64,000 bases of DNA, taken from positions 12,772,001 through 12,836,000 of the forward strand of contig OZ024761.1 in assembly GCA_964016885.1 (NCBI GenBank). Reading direction: 5' to 3'. Below the pieces are notes generated by a model. The model worked only from the letters and a program-made list of their open reading frames with translations, had not been told where the DNA came from and did no database searches. Below, in pieces: positions 2,481 to 61,069 of this stretch (positions are counted from its first letter, which is position 1; every line of letters begins with the position of its first letter). The translations under genes and the position numbers were made by a program. This DNA comes from Eledone cirrhosa (lineage: Eukaryota).

Positions 2481-2518
<38 letters not shown>

Positions 2519-2519
2519 G

Positions 2520-4010
2520 GGGACGTAGGCATCAGGGGACGTAGGCACTAAACTGGTTGCACGCATAATCAATCAGGCTATATATGGTGGTGTCATACCC
2601 AAAGACTGGTGCAGCAGTATTCTCATAAATTGCTACAGGGGTAAGGGGGATGCTTTGGAGAGGAGCAATTGTGGGGGTATAAGACTGATAGATCAGGTTA
2701 TGAGAGTGGCAGAAAGGATTTTAGCACAACTAATTAGAGAAAGGGTCAGGCTGGATGGGATGCGGTTTGGTTTTGTGCCTGGGAGGAGTGCGGCGGATGC
2801 CCTCTTCTTGGTGAGACAAATGCAAGAGAGGTTCTTAGAGAAGAATAAGCCACTATACTTAGCCTTTGTTGACCTAGAGAGGGCCTTTGATAGGGTACCC
2901 CGATCTGTCATCTGGTGGTCCCTAAGGAAGCTGGGTGTTGAGGAATGGCTTGTAAGGACAGTGCAAACTTTGTACAGAGGTACTCTCAGTAAAGTCAGGG
3001 TAGGAATGGAGTTTAGTGAGGAATTCCAGATGCAGGTGGGAGTGCATCAGGGTTCGGTCCTCAGCCCGCTCTTGTTCATTATAGTCCTCCGGGCCATAAC
3101 AGAGGAGTTTGAGACTGGCTGTCCATGGGAACTTCTCTATGCTGACGATCTGGCTCTTATGGCAGAATCAGTAGAGGAGCTAGAGAATAAATTCCAGCTA
3201 TGGAAACAGCAGTTGGAAGCAAGAGGACTGAGAGTAAATCTAGCTAAGACAGGTAAATCTAGCTAAGATGTGGCGGGATGGCGGGCAAACTAACGGGTAG
3301 GGAGAGGTATGTATGCAGTGGATGTACAGGGAGATTGGACGGTAGGGGTCGCACTGATAGACACATTTTTCAAATGCGAGAGGGCGCTGTGGAAGTGGTG
3401 GATGGCTTCCGGTGCCTGGGGGATCGGATTGGCGTGGGAGGAGGGTGTTCCGAGGCCATAGTGTCTGGAGTGAGGACGGGTTGGAAGAAGTTTAGGGAGC
3501 TGCTTCCTCTGTTGACAAAGAAGGGTTTCTCCCTGCGTACGAAAGGCCGGTTGTATGATGCCTGTGTGAGGAGCGCGATGCTGCATGGTAGTGAGACATG
3601 GGCAGCTACCGCAGAAGATATGCGACGGCTGGAGAGAAATGAGGCAAGCATGCTCCGTTGGATGTGCAGTGTAAATGTGCGTGAACGACCCAGCATGAAT
3701 GTGTTGAGAGGGAGACTGTGTCTGGGAGGGATGGAGTGTGGTGTGCGGGAGGGGAGACTGAGGTGGTGTGGGCGTGTGATGCGCATGGAGGATGACCGAT
3801 GGGTGAAGAAGTGCCAGGGGGTGCCAGTTGAGGGAGGGCGTGGTAGAGGTAGACCACGAGGGGCATGGGCGGAGGTGGTGAGAGCAGACCTCGGATCATT
3901 GGGGCTCACGGTGGAGATGGCGGGGGACCGTGACGAGTGGAGAGATGCTGTGCTGAATAAGACCCGTCCCACCCTTGCAAGCAGGGAAAAGCGGACGTAA
4001 AATGATGATG
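2520..4010 (+). mobile_element. 5'-truncated RTE-clade LINE (RT domain and C-terminus), A-to-G hypermutated, in the last SSU72 intron
   Basis: RT motifs FVDLE(R)AFD, GVHQGSVLSPLLF and LYADD; C-terminal GRGRPR..W; (ATG)n tail; flanking direct repeat ATAAACG at 2513-2519 and 4011-4017 (TSD). Frame is broken near 3250. Confidence 0.95.
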
Positions 4011-4460
4011 ATAAACGAAAGGTATAGAAAATATTGTAGCAAAAAGCCAATATATATATATATATATATATATTGGCTTTTAATATATATATATATATTA
4101 ATTCAAAATATTAACAAAATAGATATATATTTTGAATTAATATTAATAACTCCGGAAAAACATAGCTGTTGAGTGCTTCCAATCTATTGTAAAACTCATT
4201 CTTTGATTTATTCATTGAACCTTGTTTAACCTTTAAATATATATATATATATATGTGTAGAGGTTATATTTAATTTGTTGGGATACAACAAGCAAAATAT
4301 TTTTTGTATATTTAGATGCATGTGTATATATATTTACATGTATATTTATATTACCCTTTTACCATCAAAAAGTGTATGTATAGTACATAGGGTAATGTAC
4401 AAACGTCAGGAAAATGAACAGTGCATGTGTGTATATTTATATGTGTATATAAACAACAAC

Positions 4461-5129: not shown

Positions 5130-5231
5130 CTACACCAAAGTGATGATATTGACAACGATGTTGATGAAATAGTGCAACTGTTTGAAGAAAGACTTAAACA
5201 ACCAATTCTACACACCATGGCTTTCTGTTGA
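5130..5231 (+). CDS. SSU72: SSU72 last coding exon
   Basis: ttttccAG| acceptor, phase 0 matching the previous donor; 102 nt. Encodes LHQSDDIDNDVDEIVQLFEERLKQPILHTMAFC*, which aligns with the human C-terminus IQHTEDMENEIDELLQEFEEKSGRTFLHTVCFY. Confidence 0.93.
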   Translation, partial: LHQSDDIDNDVDEIVQLFEERLKQPILHTMAFC

Positions 5232-8850: not shown

Positions 8851-10804
8851 AATGACAAAAAATATACCTATATCCTTCCAAACACTTCACCACACTGCGC
8901 CACCTCACTACTGCACCCCACCACACTGCGCCACCCCACCAATCTGCCCCGCCCTCCCAATTTGTTTTTTTTTGTTTTTGATTTTTTTCTTATTTTCTCC
9001 TTCACAAATTGTTGTTTTCTCCTTCACAAATTGTTGTTGTTTTAATTAACAACAACAACAACAACAACAAATATTTACTTTTGATTTCACTAAAAAAAAA
9101 CCCCTGAAGACTTCCAATCAAATTCCTTTTTTGTTTCTTTTACATTGATTTTTTCATATTTTGACTTGCCCAACCCTCACCCTTTATCTCCCCCACACCA
9201 CTCCTTGTCTTTATCTCCCTTTATCTCCCCCACTCCTTGGCTTTATCTCCCTCACTCCACTCCCACCCTTTATTTCCCCCACACCACTCTCTGGCTTCAT
9301 CTCCCCCACACTCAACCACCCCACCCTTTATCTCCCCTAGTCCAACCCTACTCTTTATCTCCATCTCACCCCACACTCCCCTCCCCGTTATCTCCCCTAG
9401 TCCCCACCCTTTGTCTCTCCCACTCCCCACCTTTATATTCCCACACTCACCTCTCGTTAAAATACTTTGTTTTTTTACCCACCATTTTTCACCTCCCTCC
9501 CCTCTCTACTTCTCTACCCCTGACCATTCATTGCCCCCTCCCCACCTCTCTACTGCTTACCATTGCCCACTCCCCACCATTTCCCCCTCCCCTACATTCA
9601 CATTGTACACCCCACCCACCCCCAATTTATTTCAAGTATGTAATGTTTTGATGAAGAGAAAATTGAAAATATGAGAAAATACTCAATATTAAAACTGCCT
9701 TTGTGTTTTTTTTTTTATTATGTTGTGTTTGTTAATTGTTTTGATACCTGAAATAGTTTCAGCTTGATTTGTTTGAACGTCTATCTTCCACGCTAGCATA
9801 GATTGGTCAGCTGACCGTGTCTCGCTCGTATAGGACTATCTGGCAGGTTTTCTACGGCTGGATGCCCTTCCTAACATCAACCACGTTTACAGTGTGGACT
9901 GGGAGCTTTTCACCACGTTACCTACACAGCCACATTACAGCGTGGAATTTCATTTCATTTTACGTCCGCTTTTTCCCTGCTTGCAAGGGTGGGACGGGAA
10001 CTGATTCTGGCTTGATTTCTACAGCTGGATGCCCTTCCTAACACCAACCTCATTTACAGTGAGTGCTGGGTGCTTTTTGCTGTGGCACCTCCACGACCAC
10101 TTTGCAGTGGAATGATATGGACCCCAGTCCCTATCATCTCATTTCTACAGCTGAGTAAACTGGAACAATGTGAAAAAGTGTCTTGCTCAAGGAAACAACA
10201 CATCACCCGGTCTGAGAATTGAACTGACAACCTTTCGTTTGCAAGGCTAATGCTCTAACCACTAGGCCATGTGCCTCCATTGTCTGTGTGTTTTTTTTTG
10301 TTGTCATGACACCTTCACAATAGTAAAAACTTTATATTTACTATTGTTTTCACAGTATATGAACAGTGTCTTGAGTAACGAACATGCAAGCCAGCAAGAA
10401 TGGTTTGCAACAAACTGGGAGTATCAGTGGGAAAAACGTCACTTGCTGTGTAGTTAGTTACTATGATGATATCTATGTCTTTCACACAGTCTCAGTATTT
10501 TGTATGGGAAAAGTAGTTTCGGTTTTTTGAACATTTCATGTGACAAATGACCTTCAGGAATGAATTAAGTTGAAGTTAGGTTCCACTGTAGTATTGTTAG
10601 ATCTCTCCAAATCTTTGTAGGAAAAGTGTTAACCCTTTAGCATTTAATTGGCTGTATCTGGCTGGAATTCTCTCACCTCTTTCTGTTCAAACTGGCCATA
10701 ACCATCTCCTCATACTGATGTTAAGGTATTATTCTCAATAAATAATATCAAAATCTCATATTCGATATTAGTTGAGATAAAGCCTTTACCATGAAAATAC
10801 CATA

Positions 10805-10996
10805 GTATTATCATCATTATTTTACAAGCGCTTTTCCCTGCTTGCAAGGGTGGGACAGGTCCTATTCAGCACGGCATCTCTCCACTTGTCACGGTCTTTT
10901 GTCATCTCCTCTGTGAGTTTCAGCAATCTGAGGTCTGCTCTCACCACCTCCGCCCATGTTTTTTGTGGTCTTCCTCGACTGCGTTTTCCTTCTACA
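10805..10996 (-). mobile_element. RTE LINE 3' fragment (same family as 2520-4010, not hypermutated)
   Basis: Encodes GRPQKTWAEVVRADLRLLKLTEEMTKDRDKWRDAVLN followed by the cccacccttgcaagcagggaaaagc tail. Confidence 0.9.
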
Positions 10997-18761: not shown

Positions 18762-18961
18762 NNNNNNNNNNNNNNNNNNNNNNNNNNNNNNNNNNNNNNN
18801 NNNNNNNNNNNNNNNNNNNNNNNNNNNNNNNNNNNNNNNNNNNNNNNNNNNNNNNNNNNNNNNNNNNNNNNNNNNNNNNNNNNNNNNNNNNNNNNNNNNN
18901 NNNNNNNNNNNNNNNNNNNNNNNNNNNNNNNNNNNNNNNNNNNNNNNNNNNNNNNNNNNNN
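18762..18961. other. Assembly gap (200 N)
   Basis: Run of exactly 200 N, so the true size is unknown. Confidence 1.
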
Positions 18962-30647: not shown

Positions 30648-31060
30648 TCATCATCATCATCATCATTTTAGGGTGGGACGGGTCTTATTCAGCACAGCAT
30701 CTCTCCACTTGTCACGGTCCTTTGTCATCTCCACCGTGAGTTTCTGAGGTCTGTTCTCACCACCTCCGCCCATGTTTTTCGTGGTCTACCTCTACCACGT
30801 CTTCCTCCATACCACTGCACACTCCATTCTATCCCCCTCAGAAACATCCATGCTGGGTCGTTCACGCACATTGACATTGCACATCCAACAGAGCATGCTT
30901 GCCTCATTTCTCTCCAGCCGTCGCATATCCTCCGCAGTTGCTGCCCATGTCTCACTACCATGCAGCATCACGCTCCTCACACAGGCATCATATAACTGGT
31001 CTTCCGTACGCAAGGAGAAACCCATCTTTGTCAGCAGAGGAAGCTGCTCCCTAAACTTCT
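30648..31060 (-). mobile_element. RTE LINE 3' fragment with internal deletions (same family, not hypermutated)
   Basis: YDACVRSVMLHGSETWAATAEDMRRLERNEASML...GRGRPRKTWAEVV plus (ATG)n tail. Confidence 0.9.
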
Positions 31061-31702: not shown

Positions 31703-34100
31703 GCTTGCAGATGTTTATCTGAAAAATACAGAGAGAAACTTTGTTATGTCATCAATGGAAAAGAGGGATATTTATGCCATCAATAACTGGATCATCATCA
31801 TCATTTTATGTCCGCTTTTCCCTGCTTGCAAGGGTTGGACTTGTTCTGTTGTGGGCAGTGTCCGGTCGGCTGACCTTGTCTTGCTCATACGGCAACTGAT
31901 TCTGGCTTCATTTCTACAGTTGGATGCCCTTCCTAACACCAACCTCATTTACAGTGAGTGCTGGGTGCTTTTTTTTTTGTGGCGCCTAGATGTCCACGTT
32001 ATAGTTTGGGCTGGGTGCTTTTTTGCCGTGGCACCTCGACGATCACTTTGTAGTGGAATGATAGGGACCCCAGTCCCTATCATCTCATTTCTACAGCTGA
32101 GTAAACTGGAGCAATGTGAAATAAAGTGTCTTGCTCAAGGAAACAACATCACCCGGTCCGAGAATTGAACTCACAACCTTTCGATTGCAATCCCAATGCT
32201 CTAACCACTAAGCCATGCGCCATATTTCTAGAAATAATTATTGATTTCATCTCTATAATATAGAATAGAAAGTATCTAATTATTTCATAACCAAATAATC
32301 TACTTAATATAATTGTTTCTACTATTGGCACAATGCCAGCAATTATCTCAGTGTATTACTGGTACTTTATTTTATTGACCCTGCAAGGATGAAACGCAAA
32401 GTTAACCCTGGCGGGATTTGCCATGCATTAGTCTGTAGCGCAGTAGAGATGACTGGGGAAGGAAGGGGTGATAGCGTCAACTGAGGAAGGAAGGGGTGTG
32501 TTTGTATGTTTGTATTACTTGTGTGAGTGAACGCGAAGGAACCAACAAATCAAGAAGTTGGAGTGATTTAATTCATAATTAAGCTGGTGTTTGGAAGATT
32601 AAAAATGTTCTTAAAATTATGATGGAATGTTTTTAGATAAATATAACTTTAAAGTTAAACAGATTTGTATGATAGAACCCGAGGTCATTTCAGCACCTGC
32701 TGGAAGGTTGCTAGAGGACTCTGCCACCATGACCGTTCCAGGAATAAGTGGGGGAAGATAGTTGTAATTCTAAACACTGAGAAACTGTGACAACTTTACA
32801 CTGTAGTCACTGAACCAGACAGTTTGAGGTATTAATAGTTTGTCAAGTCAGTGAACCATGTCGTGTGAATTGCGACAACCTTACACTAATTCTGTGAAGT
32901 CAGTGAACCAAGTCATGTTAACCTTGACAACCTTACACAGTAATTCTGTGAAGTCAGTGAACCAAGTCATGTTAACCATGACAACCTTACACAGTAATTC
33001 TGTGAAGTCTGACATGGTATGGTATGATATAGTCTCGTAACTGCTGTCCAGCGCATTTTAAAAGCTGGCAGAGCTCATCTCTCCAGGTCTCAGTGAAATA
33101 AGCAATGTTAATTACAATTAAAATTAAGGGAAACAACCTTTTGTTAAATTAGCAATTCTGGTTTTAAGGGAGACAACTCTGAAATAGATTATTAAAAATA
33201 TTTAAAAGTAAAATAAAATTCATTCGTATTATTAACAATTCTTTAAAGAAAGTATTTATATATAGTTTATGTCCAGTAAAGAGAAGAGGACCATTTCAAA
33301 CCGAAGAACTACTTTAGCTATAAATTAAAATAATAATCGAGACTACCGGAACAAAATAATCTATTTGAAATTGCTTCCACGTCTGAGTGATAAGTTATGC
33401 ATTTTATTTTTAACACAAACATATTACATAATTCTCTCATCTCTTTCTGTTCAAACTGGCTGTAACCAGCAACTGATGTTAAGGTATTGTTCTCAAAATA
33501 AATAACATCAAAATCTTATAGATTCGATATTATGTGATGTTAAAATCTTTACTATGAATATATATAGATAATAGCAAATATAGAGTAATGTAAATGCTAA
33601 AAGGTTAACATAATAAAACTATGATAATCATAGCAAATATAATAAAGATAGATTAAAGTGCGGCAGACAAGAGGAAAACAAGAAATAAATAAGAAGAATG
33701 TATTCTTTATGGCTTGTAACAATTAACATCTATAGGAATGTATAAATAGAAATATCAAAAGGTAGTCGAAGTGAGTGTTGACTGTTAAGTAGTTTCGAAA
33801 CGCTGTGTCAAGGTCAAAAATGAAGGTGAAGGCTGTTGACAATCTGAAGGTCATACCCAGCCTTTCCTTGCTACTACTACTGCTATTATTATTTCGTCCT
33901 TCCCCTAGGTCGATTTAATCGCCCCACCCCTCCCCGTCACCCCCAAACATGTTGGCCTTGTGCCTAACCCAGAAATTATTATTAAGTGCACAGATTCGCC
34001 AAATTATGTAACACACACACATACATATAAATATATATACACACATACATATATATATATATATAAATACACACACACACACACACATATATATATAAAT

Positions 34101-49381: not shown

Positions 49382-49731
49382 GCACATGGCTTAGTGGTTA
49401 GAGCATTGGCCTTGCAATTGAAAGGTTGTGAGTTCAATTCTCAGACTGGGTGATGTGTTGTTTCCTTAAGCAAGACACTTTATTTCACATTGCTCCAGTT
49501 TACTCAGCTGTAGAAATGAGATGATAGGGACTGGGGTCCCTATCATTCCACTGTAAAGTGGTCGTGGAGGTGCCACGGCCAAACAAGCACCCAGCACTCA
49601 CTGTAAATGAGGTTGGTGTTAGGAAGGGCATCCAGCTGTAGAAATCAAGCCAGAATCAAGCCAGAATCAGTTCCCGTCCCACCCTTGCAAGCAGGGAAAA
49701 GCGGACGTAAAATGATATGATGATGATGATG
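49382..49731 (+). mobile_element. tRNA-derived SINE with CORE-like centre and RTE-derived tail (other copies ~9957-10272 -, 28747-28910 +, 31797-32220 -, 58410-58650 +, 60542-60848 -)
   Basis: A box TGGCTTAGTGG and B box GAGTTCAATTC; central tccttgagcaagacacttt; 3' end identical to the RTE tail ccgtcccacccttgcaagcagggaaaagcggacgtaaaatgat. Confidence 0.85.
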
Positions 49732-57175: not shown

Positions 57176-57589
57176 ACTATTATCCAGTTGTTGGTTAGCT
57201 GTCTGACAGAACAGTCAGATGATGAAAACTGTTCCAGTTCTGACTGTTGATATATTTTGGTTTAAACTACATTATCCAATATACTGAGCTCTCTTTTGTT
57301 AGTGTTAGGGTGTAATTTGAGAAACCTAGCTGCTGTTTCTAGGAAGCAGTGATCAGATAAATGCTTTTCTTGCTGGTGTAGGTTTGGCTGGATTGTTTAG
57401 CTAAAGGTAAACTCTGGTTAAGTAGTCTTATGATCCACGATGATCCTGTCTTTTTACTTAAATACCTGGAGACAGGTGGAGAGATGCTGTGCTGAATAGG
57501 ACCCGTCCCACTCTTGCAAGCAGGGAAAAGTGGACGTAAAATGATGATGATGATGATCTGGAACTATATTGTCCATTCTGTCTTTCTCA

Positions 57590-58173: not shown

Positions 58174-58646
58174 AATAGGGAGACACAAAGCAGGCTTTGT
58201 TTACAAACAGCTAGCGAATTTGAAAATTAGGTAGTAACATGTGCTTATGCCGTATTTGACTAAATAGAATTAGTCTGTTAGTTGGAATTTAAAAAAAACC
58301 CTCTGAATGGAAAAAAAGGATGGGTATTGATTGATGTACATGGGACACAAACCCACATCTTTGGTTTGCTGGACCAATGTCTTACCATTACACCAATACA
58401 CCATATATATATTGTGAGTTCAATTCTCTCAGACCGGGTGATGTGTTGTTTCCTTGAGCAAGACACTTTATTTCACATTGCTCCAGTTTACTCAGCTGTA
58501 GAAATGGAGGTGCCACGTAAAAAAGGCACCCAGCACTCACTGTAAATGAGGTTGGTGTTAGGAAGGGCATCCAGCTGTAGAAATCAAGCCAGAATCAGTT
58601 CCTGTCCCACCCTTGCAAGCAGGGAAAAGCGGACGTAAAATGATGA

Positions 58647-58685
<39 letters not shown>

Positions 58686-60444: not shown

Positions 60445-61069
60445 CTATATATATATATATATTTACAGTGAGTGATGGGTGCTTTTTTTCCGTGGCGCCT
60501 ACACGACCACTTTACAGTGTGGACTGATATATATATATATAATCATCATCATCATTTTACGTCCGCTTTTCCCTGCTTGCAAGGGTGGGACGGGAACTGA
60601 TTCTGGCTTGATTTCTACAGCTGGATGCCCTTCCTAACACCAACCTCATTTACAGTGAGTGCTGGGTGCTTTTTTGCCGTGGCACCTCCACGACCACTTT
60701 GCAGTGGAATGATAGGGACCCCAGTCCCTATCATCTCATTTCTACAGCTGAGTAAACTGGAGCAATGTGAAATAAAGTGTCTTGCTCAAGGAAACAACAC
60801 ATCACCCGGTCTGAGAATTGAACTCACAACCTTTCCATTGCAAGCCCAATATATATATAAAAAATAAAGGTTTCGATGGATAGTCAGTTGTTTACAATTT
60901 GCTCATCAAATTAATTTAGGGCACAACTATTGGATTAATTGTAATACAACATTCCCAGCTTGGCACATGTCTGTTCCTTTGTGTGTCAAGATCCAGCTGG
61001 TTGTACTCAACAAGCCACCAGCCACCATTGTCCTCTGCAGTTACACCTGTTTGGTCTTTAATTCACCCC

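What the first reader, a model, noticed from the sequence alone, without database searches (positions are those of the whole stretch)
2520..4010. RTE LINE copy that looks like an ADAR-hyperedited RNA written back into the genome
Seen in sequence: aligning 3833-3974 to the sibling copy at 30671-30805 gives, by hand count, 15 substitutions. All are G in this copy versus A in the sibling, with no other type (CGAAAAAC>CGAGGGGC, ATGACAAAGG>ATGGCGGGGG, CTCAGA>CTCGGA, GACAAG>GACGAG). A third copy (10805-10996) has A at all but one of these sites, so A is ancestral. Surviving As are context-biased: all 12 As in 3701-3780, and all As in 2751-2800 and 3401-3455, are preceded by G. Conserved RT residues change as A>G predicts (DLEKAFD>DLERAFD, NYRGI>NCGGI, MQFGF>MRFGF, YLG>CLG, WYGHV>WCGRV). 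The mutated patches alternate with nearly untouched stretches such as ~3480-3690. The element has a TSD (ATAAACG) and an (ATG)n tail, so it passed through RNA. Established: ADARs convert A to I (read as G) in clusters and disfavour a 5' G neighbour; coleoid cephalopods edit very heavily; well-known genomic retroelement hypermutation is mostly APOBEC G>A. Inference: germline ADAR hyperedited the LINE RNA before reverse transcription, producing a dead-on-arrival insertion. That would be a heritable record of ADAR acting as a retrotransposon restriction and mutagenesis system. Caveat: the copy is sense to SSU72, so polishing the assembly with RNA reads could mimic this.
Basis: partly seen in the sequence, partly recalled or inferred. 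Interest (0 to 1): 0.92.

Follow-up and report, generated by a model that had tools for sequence, protein, structure and literature searches.

The report
RNA-edited retrotransposon written into DNA
This jumping-gene copy, and eight others in the same genome assembly, carry dense clusters of A-to-G changes with the fingerprint of the RNA-editing enzyme ADAR, which suggests that edited RNA was copied back into heritable DNA; raw DNA reads have yet to confirm it.

Summary
Observation confirmed and extended. The 5'-truncated LINE at 2520-4010 differs from 28 near-identical siblings at 80 of 1468 sites: 78 A>G on the element's sense strand, 2 G>A. Changes are clustered and avoid a 5' G (12/155 versus 66/284, p=4e-5). 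The G-rich version is single-copy. Eight more copies on six contigs show the same signature at different site sets. One of them came from an unselected sample (1 of 101 copies; the other 100 show no A>G excess). Two mirror T>C motif searches found nothing, antisense neighbours in the same SSU72 gene are clean, and the element's last 75 nt are never changed (0/180 A). [quoted passage not shown] Not shown: the Gs in raw DNA reads (searches were inconclusive), the enzyme, the dsRNA partner, or any restriction role. This copy is dead by truncation and a frameshifting deletion regardless of editing, and the family is thriving (5375 motif matches). Ten literature searches found APOBEC G>A retroelements and ADAR-edited retroviruses, but no ADAR-hyperedited genomic LINE copies.

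The parts
2520..4010 (+). 5'-truncated non-LTR retrotransposon copy (3' 1.6 kb of a 4.7-kb element), carrying 78 A>G changes
   Evidence: Pfam RVT_1 on 2529-3263 E=8e-25
2513..2519 (+). left target-site duplication ATAAACG, at the edge of a (TA)n run
   Evidence: read by eye; the automatic search was dominated by TA repeats
4011..4017 (+). right target-site duplication ATAAACG
2519..2547 (+). 5' junction: 13-nt duplication (2519-2531 repeats 2535-2547), sharing one G with the TSD; typical of template re-priming at the truncation point (inference)
2638..2795 (+). edited patch 1: 17 of 57 A read G
3032..3111 (+). edited patches 2a and 2b: 4 of 6 A (3032-3044) and 3 of 9 A (3091-3111)
3234..3268 (+). 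internal deletion of 129 nt replaced by 14 nt, forming a 16-nt tandem duplication (3234-3249 / 3253-3268); shifts the frame and removes most of the PHD-type finger found in the intact sibling
3272..3472 (+). edited patch 3: 25 of 66 A
3473..3696 (+). unedited gap: 0 of 54 A
3697..3923 (+). edited patch 4: 28 of 72 A
3926..4000 (+). 3'-terminal 75 nt of the ORF, free of A>G here and in all other edited copies (0 of 180 A pooled over 9 copies, one shared old variant set aside)
4001..4010 (+). short (ATG)n tail directly after the stop codon
939..1076 (+). SSU72 coding exon upstream of the insertion (profile positions 114-158)
   Evidence: E=2e-12
5130..5231 (+). last SSU72 coding exon (profile positions 157-188); the LINE lies sense in the intron before it
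   Evidence: E=0.0023, below the family cut-off as a 33-aa piece
10808..10979 (-). older 3' fragment of the family; unedited comparator

Best explanation
A sense transcript of a currently active RTE-type LINE became double-stranded in patches, most likely by pairing with antisense RNA from one of thousands of other copies (inferred; the element has no long internal hairpin). An ADAR converted about 18% of its adenosines (30-40% within patches) to inosine. The LINE protein then used this RNA for target-primed reverse transcription in a germ-line cell, read I as G, slipped once (deletion plus duplication), stopped after 1.6 kb and sealed the copy with a 7-bp TSD in the last SSU72 intron. The last 75 nt escaped editing, either shielded by the bound LINE protein or required intact for recognition (inferred). 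This happens to a minority of insertions, roughly 0.1 to a few per cent, repeatedly and at different ages. Shown: substitution spectrum, strand, clustering, neighbour bias, uniqueness, eight further copies, bimodal distribution, spared 3' end. Inferred: enzyme identity, RNA stage, duplex partner, germ line, and that the assembly reflects true DNA.
For: 78 of 80 differences are sense-strand A>G. 5' neighbour rates T 26/90, A 29/113, C 11/81, G 12/155, p=4e-5. The bias repeats in the 8 other copies with motif-forced sites removed: T 57/426, A 89/702, C 30/512, G 58/1051, p=2e-6, and in the unselected copy L182 alone, p=0.01. 5'-G depletion is the motif shared by all metazoan hyper-editing in PMC5625713 (passages). 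Clustering p<=0.001 in 8 of 9 copies, 0.024 in the ninth. 4 of 5375 copies have both UAG sites of one motif as G and all 4 also have a third site as G. Seven motif-found copies hold 198 A>G against 17 T>C outside the forced sites. Unselected sample: 1 of 101 copies with 39 A>G to 2 T>C, p=1e-7; the other 100 have ratio 0.92. Mirror T>C motifs: 0 and 0 matches. Two antisense copies 5-7 kb upstream in the same SSU72 gene have 0 and 2 T>C. In head-to-head pair L075 only the one arm is changed (25 A>G; the other arm 0 A>G and 2 T>C). Last 75 nt: 0/180 A against 119/764 just upstream; chance for the two unselected copies 0.29 x 0.04.
Against: No raw DNA read or contig carrying the Gs was seen. The best runs hold 0.43-0.45 of the window's words, about what sibling-shared (0.39) plus flank words (0.08) give, so the private words are missing. 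Laying four runs on the older edited copy L076 showed no listed piece across its densest patches and depth 0 in one bin. No duplex was found: longest helix 9 bp, and editing frequency correlates weakly negatively with predicted pairing (rho -0.10 and -0.18). The 3' neighbour leans to G (p=0.01-0.09), whereas PMC5625713 reports A enrichment downstream for invertebrates and a reduced G preference in octopus. Decay of edit-made CpGs is suggestive only (2/27 against 22/1023, p=0.12). One sense motif in a second young LINE family found nothing (denominator unknown). Human L1 RNA was not detectably edited by ADAR1 (PMC5224506, passages). Seven of the eight extra copies were found by motifs modelled on the expected signature.
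Confidence: 0.8

Rival explanations
1. Assembly artefact: edited RNA reads (host pre-mRNA or LINE transcripts) were used in polishing or gap filling and overwrote genomic As.
For: The copy is sense to SSU72. No public run was found holding its private words, and the older edited copy L076 was not recovered in four runs. How the assembly was made is unknown to me.
Against: Host-transcript editing should hit antisense copies as T>C: 0 in two motif searches, 0 of 101 unselected copies, none in two antisense neighbours within SSU72 nor in the inverted arm of L075. It has no reason to spare the element's last 75 nt at all loci. The repeat flanking the insertion shows 1 A>G among about 7 differences from its paralogue (read by eye). 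A majority-vote polisher cannot impose 78 sites from heterogeneous edited reads (inference). Contigs of these runs drop rare variants, and the runs may come from other individuals.
Confidence: 0.07
2. Reverse-transcriptase misincorporation (for example dNTP imbalance giving dC opposite template A, or primer slippage next to G), or a non-ADAR adenosine deaminase, acting during some insertions.
For: The same RT evidently slipped in this copy (deletion/duplication). A lean to 3' G could come from dislocation. No dsRNA partner was found.
Against: The strongest bias is at the 5' neighbour, not yet copied when the RT reaches the site, and it matches the ADAR rule. Only one of twelve substitution types rises. 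Patches switch on and off within one molecule and share hot sites between independent copies (24 shared against 11.6 expected for W and L076). 41 of 78 changes lack a 3' G.
Confidence: 0.07
3. RNA-to-DNA transfer after insertion: an ordinary copy was later overwritten in tracts by cDNA from edited RNA (gene conversion), or ADAR edited the DNA strand of an RNA:DNA hybrid.
For: Patchy tracts could be conversion tracts. ADARs can edit DNA in hybrids in vitro (as reviewed in PMC12925331, passages).
Against: Editing of the first-strand cDNA in the TPRT hybrid, or of the template strand in an SSU72 R-loop, would read as T>C on the element's sense strand; 0 T>C seen. The window copy is as young as its youngest siblings (2 other changes), leaving little time. 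In L076 an 80-nt piece joined from 1.5 kb upstream is edited like the rest, which fits one edited template.
Confidence: 0.05
4. A G-rich active subfamily or ordinary mutation accumulation.
Against: The edited patch as query finds no copy above 89% identity among 40 scored of 1238 candidates. Each edited copy has its own site set. The frame is broken. Background mutation is G>A/C>T dominated and strand-symmetric for A>G versus T>C.
Confidence: 0.01

Closest known systems
APOBEC DNA editing of LTR retrotransposons fixed in vertebrate genomes (PMC4866542, passages; PMC2873906, passages)
   Same: A host deaminase leaves clustered, strand-specific, motif-biased hypermutation on a retroelement intermediate that then integrates and is inherited as a unique copy.
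   Different: G>A from C>U on cDNA, LTR elements, vertebrates; that screen covered LTR elements and found 19 invertebrate genomes at noise level. Here A>G on the RNA-sense strand, a non-LTR element, an ADAR-type motif.
ADAR-type A>G hyperediting of exogenous retroviruses: Rous-associated virus, avian leukosis virus, HTLV-2, STLV-3 (PMC12925331, review passage; the primary papers were not read)
   Same: A>G clusters laid on retroelement RNA and carried through reverse transcription.
   Different: Infections rather than inherited genome sequence; in the avian cases a U3/inverted-repeat region, whereas this LINE has no long internal inverted repeat and several independent chromosomal copies.
Hyper-editing of repeat RNA in coleoid cephalopods and other metazoans (PMC9068888, PMC5625713, passages)
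   Same: Same chemistry, clustering and 5'-G depletion; repeats are the main non-neural target, and a defence role against transposons was suggested as unexplored.
   Different: Described at RNA level only. The downstream preference reported for invertebrates is A, against a weak G lean here.
ADAR1 restriction of human LINE-1 (PMC5224506, passages)
   Same: ADAR meets a LINE ribonucleoprotein.
   Different: Restriction there is editing-independent and no editing of L1 RNA was detected in over 2.5 kb. Here editing is evident and restriction is not.
RTE-2_OV, active RTE LINE of Octopus vulgaris (PMC9115989, passages)
   Same: Single long ORF with endonuclease, RT and a zinc-binding domain; recently active, insertion-polymorphic RTE elements in octopuses.
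   Different: 1109 aa with about 600-nt UTRs and a C2H2 finger, against a 1024-aa open frame, a PHD-type hit and almost no 3' UTR here. Sequences were not compared, so identity is untested.

Membership tests
ADAR A-to-I hyperediting | A>G dominance on the RNA-sense strand | tested here: met
   78 of 80 differences, 0 T>C; 198 against 17 in seven other copies
ADAR A-to-I hyperediting | clustered sites | tested here: met
   permutation p<=0.001 in 8 of 9 copies, 0.024 in one
ADAR A-to-I hyperediting | depletion of G at the 5' neighbour | tested here: met
   p=4e-5; p=2e-6 in 8 other copies without forced sites; motif per PMC5625713
ADAR A-to-I hyperediting | 3' neighbour preference (G in mammals, A in invertebrates per PMC5625713) | tested here: inconclusive
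   weak G lean, p=0.07, 0.054 and 0.01; does not match the reported invertebrate pattern
ADAR A-to-I hyperediting | long double-stranded RNA substrate | tested here: inconclusive
   no long internal inverted repeat, longest helix 9 bp, no positive correlation with self-pairing; an antisense partner cannot be tested
ADAR A-to-I hyperediting | inosine in the RNA and dependence on an ADAR enzyme | not testable with these tools
   needs gonad RNA and knock-down; ADAR genes were not searched in G000
Heritable genomic hypermutation | changes present in raw genomic DNA | tested here: inconclusive
   neither show nor exclude the Gs; CpG-decay test p=0.12
APOBEC-edited retroelements | G>A clusters on the sense strand | tested here: not met
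   2 G>A against 78 A>G
Non-LTR retrotransposon insertion (TPRT) | TSD, 3' simple-repeat tail, 5' truncation, many dispersed siblings sharing the 3' end | tested here: met
RTE clade LINE | single long ORF with AP-like endonuclease and RT, microsatellite tail | tested here: met
   1024-aa open frame in siblings L081 and L083; Exo_endo_phos, RVT_1 and PHD hits
RTE clade LINE | phylogenetic placement of the RT within the RTE clade | not tested
   no tree with reference clades was built; the label rests on architecture and recall
Retrotransposon restriction system | editing lowers the output of functional insertions | not testable with these tools
   only survivors are visible; 100 of 101 unselected copies unedited; this copy is truncated and frameshifted anyway

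The most novel reading that the evidence does not exclude
In this animal's germ line ADAR-hyperedited RNA is a recurrent template for retrotransposition, so A-to-I edits become inherited DNA. The genome then holds a datable fossil record of germ-line ADAR activity and specificity, and of the footprint of the LINE protein on its RNA (the spared 3' 75 nt). The same route could hardwire edits of cellular mRNAs through retrocopies.
Probability: 0.7. Interest if true: 0.88.

Novelty: new variant of a known kind. Interest (0 to 1): 0.8.

Why it matters
RNA editing is normally regarded as non-heritable, and deaminase footprints on genomic retroelements are known mainly as APOBEC G>A in vertebrate LTR elements. 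Nine independent LINE insertions with an ADAR-type A>G footprint would show that edited RNA reaches the germ-line genome, in an animal group thought to edit heavily. It makes three open questions testable from assemblies alone: whether ADAR acts on retrotransposition-competent RNA in germ cells (human L1 work found no editing), whether such activity is higher in coleoids than in other animals, and whether some edited-A to genomic-G replacements arise by reverse transcription rather than by point mutation and selection. The spared 3' end also offers a natural footprint of the LINE protein's binding site. It does not yet show defence: the measurable effect is mutagenesis of a small minority of copies.

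Tried and rejected
Raw-DNA confirmation failed to decide. One search listed 15 runs, none holding more than 0.45 of the window's words. I spent the single read-laying run on the older edited copy L076 with runs X4, X5, X1, X13 (4 of 15 runs): thousands of sibling pieces were laid, X4 matched 161 nt of the 3' flank exactly, but no listed piece (24 shown, 19944 not shown) bridged the dense patches, and the flanks are themselves repeats. Edited patch as a DNA query returned mostly unedited copies and one edited copy (L032 = L063). CpG-decay dating of edits was underpowered. Self-folding does not explain the patches, and the spared 3' end folds no better than shuffles (z=+0.46). A second young LINE family gave 0 matches for both the A>G and the T>C motif with no denominator, so generality beyond one family is not shown. 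L066/L080 (183 nt, 3 A>G to 1 T>C after masking) matched a motif but was not counted as edited. L006 was dropped from the sibling set. Low-level editing across ordinary copies was looked for and not found. TSDs of the other eight copies could not be called reliably, as most sit in TA microsatellites. Earlier scan findings: none returned. Literature: ten searches found no report of ADAR-hyperedited LINE copies in a genome; the library lacks most subscription papers, a large-scale retrotransposon DNA-editing study of 2011 (recalled) was not read, and no supplements were read.

Full report
What is there. The window lies on contig C22 of a 3.0-Gb animal genome. Bases 2520-4010 are the 3' 1.6 kb of a 4.7-kb non-LTR retrotransposon whose intact siblings carry a 1024-aa open frame with endonuclease, RT and PHD-type hits. 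It has a 7-bp TSD (2513-2519, 4011-4017), a short (ATG)n tail, a 13-nt duplication at the 5' junction and a 129-nt internal deletion replaced by a local duplication that shifts the frame. It sits sense in the last intron of SSU72. The family is young and large: 5375 places match a 24-nt motif with every A allowed as G, and 28 close siblings differ from their majority by 0-9 bases in about 1470. The RTE label rests on architecture, not on a tree.

The observation. With young siblings the picture is sharper: 80 differences in 1468 columns, 78 A>G on the sense strand, 2 G>A, no T>C. 78 of 441 As are changed, by 5' neighbour T 26/90, A 29/113, C 11/81, G 12/155 (p=4e-5). They fall in patches of 17/57, 4/6, 3/9, 25/66 and 28/72 As plus one lone site, separated by clean runs of 38, 44 and 54 As (clustering p=0.0005). 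47 of 63 codons hit change the residue. No other copy shares this haplotype (best 89% among 40 scored).

A subpopulation. Four short motifs with two As forced to G gave 4, 2, 3 and 3 matches, at 9 distinct loci including the window copy. Seven of the other eight are hyperedited well beyond the motif: A>G to T>C 21/2 (C2), 35/1 (C26), 25/2 (C28), 83/2 (C5), 13/1 (C2), 29/8 (C2), 23/1 (C20); outside forced sites 198 to 17. The two weakest are L077 (p=0.017) and L078 (p=0.01). The eighth is too short to call. Independently I fetched the first 100 listed places (all on C1; 101 copies scored). One, L123, has 39 A>G to 2 T>C (p=1e-7). The other 100 show no excess (189/57074 A>G, 143/39875 T>C, ratio 0.92). 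So the distribution is bimodal, with frequency 1/101 (95% interval 0.03-5.4%) and a floor of 4/5375 at one motif. The 5'-G depletion repeats in the eight further copies without forced sites (p=2e-6). Copies range from very young (2-4 other changes) to about 3% diverged, so the process recurs. Site sets differ but overlap more than chance in most pairs.

Strand controls. Mirror motifs forcing two T to C gave 0 and 0 matches (the denominator is known only for the first). No unselected copy has a T>C excess. Two antisense family copies in an upstream SSU72 intron, 5-7 kb away, have 0 and 2 T>C in 659 and 535 nt. At L075 an edited copy is fused head-to-head with an unedited inverted copy: a read-through hairpin would edit both arms, but the second has 0 A>G and 2 T>C. 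The last 75 nt before the tail are unchanged in all nine copies (eight cover it fully): 0/180 As against 119/764 just upstream, and 0/67 against 75/245 in the favoured context (one variant shared by 7 of 99 ordinary copies set aside). For the two copies not found by motif the chance is 0.29 x 0.04. These controls tie the changes to the element's own RNA and its 3' end, not to host transcripts. Host-gene orientation is known only for the window copy.

What failed. I could not see the Gs in raw DNA. No listed run holds the window copy's private words, as expected for a very young insertion in other individuals or for contigs that drop rare variants, but also under an artefact. Laying four runs on the older copy L076 gave no listed piece across its dense patches. 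Decay of edit-created CpGs, which would prove residence in DNA, runs at 2/27, near ancestral CpGs (21/207) and above other Cs (22/1023), but p=0.12. No internal duplex explains the patches. The 3' neighbour leans to G, unlike the invertebrate pattern in PMC5625713. One motif pair in a second young family found nothing.

Mechanism. Shown: spectrum, strand, clustering, neighbour rule, uniqueness, recurrence, spared 3' end. Inferred: a sense LINE transcript paired with antisense RNA, ADAR deaminated it in patches, and TPRT read I as G. Editing of cDNA in the TPRT hybrid would give T>C and is excluded for this copy. With 47 residue changes in the RT region, protein made from the edited RNA would probably be inactive, so editing followed translation or the RNA was mobilised in trans (inference). 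The spared 3' end fits either protein shielding or a need for an intact recognition site.

Comparison and novelty. It works like APOBEC editing of LTR elements fixed in vertebrate genomes (PMC4866542, PMC2873906; passages), but fails its defining G>A feature. It matches ADAR hyperediting of retroviral RNA carried through reverse transcription (PMC12925331; review passage), but in inherited chromosomal LINE copies. Cephalopod editing of repeat RNA is known and a defence role was suggested as unexplored (PMC9068888; passages). Human ADAR1 restricts L1 without detectable editing (PMC5224506; passages). PMC7186786 (passages) attributes genomic G at edited Alu sites to selection on mutations. Ten searches found no report of ADAR-hyperedited genomic LINE copies; subscription papers and all supplements were unseen.

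Verdict. Real in the assembly, far beyond chance, and recurrent. ADAR-edited RNA written into the genome about 0.8; artefact about 0.07. New variant of a known kind; interest 0.8.

Noticed in passing
L075:4195-5152 (G000:C28 about 101245200-101246150): Two 3' fragments of the family (about 480 nt each) are fused 5'-to-5' as a palindrome; one arm has 25 A>G, the other none. It looks like two different RNA templates used at one site.
   Followed up: partly
window 3926-4000 and the same segment of eight other copies: The last 75 nt of the element are never edited, a possible footprint of the LINE protein; no notable fold was predicted.
   Followed up: partly
L076:2430-3605 (G000:C5 about 117519900-117521100): Most heavily changed copy (83 A>G). 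An 80-nt piece from 1.5 kb further upstream in the element is joined to its 5' end and is edited too; it holds both CA>TG doublets seen.
   Followed up: partly
L081:1034-4105 (minus strand): The intact ORF has a PHD-finger hit (aa 757-800, E=2e-5) right after the RT domain, and the stop codon is followed almost directly by the (ATG)n tail, so any 3' recognition signal lies inside the coding sequence.
   Followed up: no
L073:6185-8347, L085:1797-2950, L142:2-1248: A second young LINE family, about 68% identical to the first, with copies 99% alike to each other. One A>G motif and one T>C motif found no match.
   Followed up: partly
L079:2469-3298 (G000:C20): Edited copy (23 A>G in a 180-nt patch) whose alignment stops about 30 nt before the stop codon, with no tail; the 3' end may have been lost later.
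   Followed up: no
window 9955-9998, 31794-31840, 49673-49721, 57476-57551, 58601-58651, 60545-60594: Many 45-75-nt pieces matching the element's extreme 3' end plus tail; several follow other repeats and may be SINEs that borrow this LINE's 3' end.
   Followed up: no
window 30670-31060: The older sibling carries four short internal deletions within 390 nt.
   Followed up: no
window 18762-18961: Assembly gap of 200 N.
   Followed up: no
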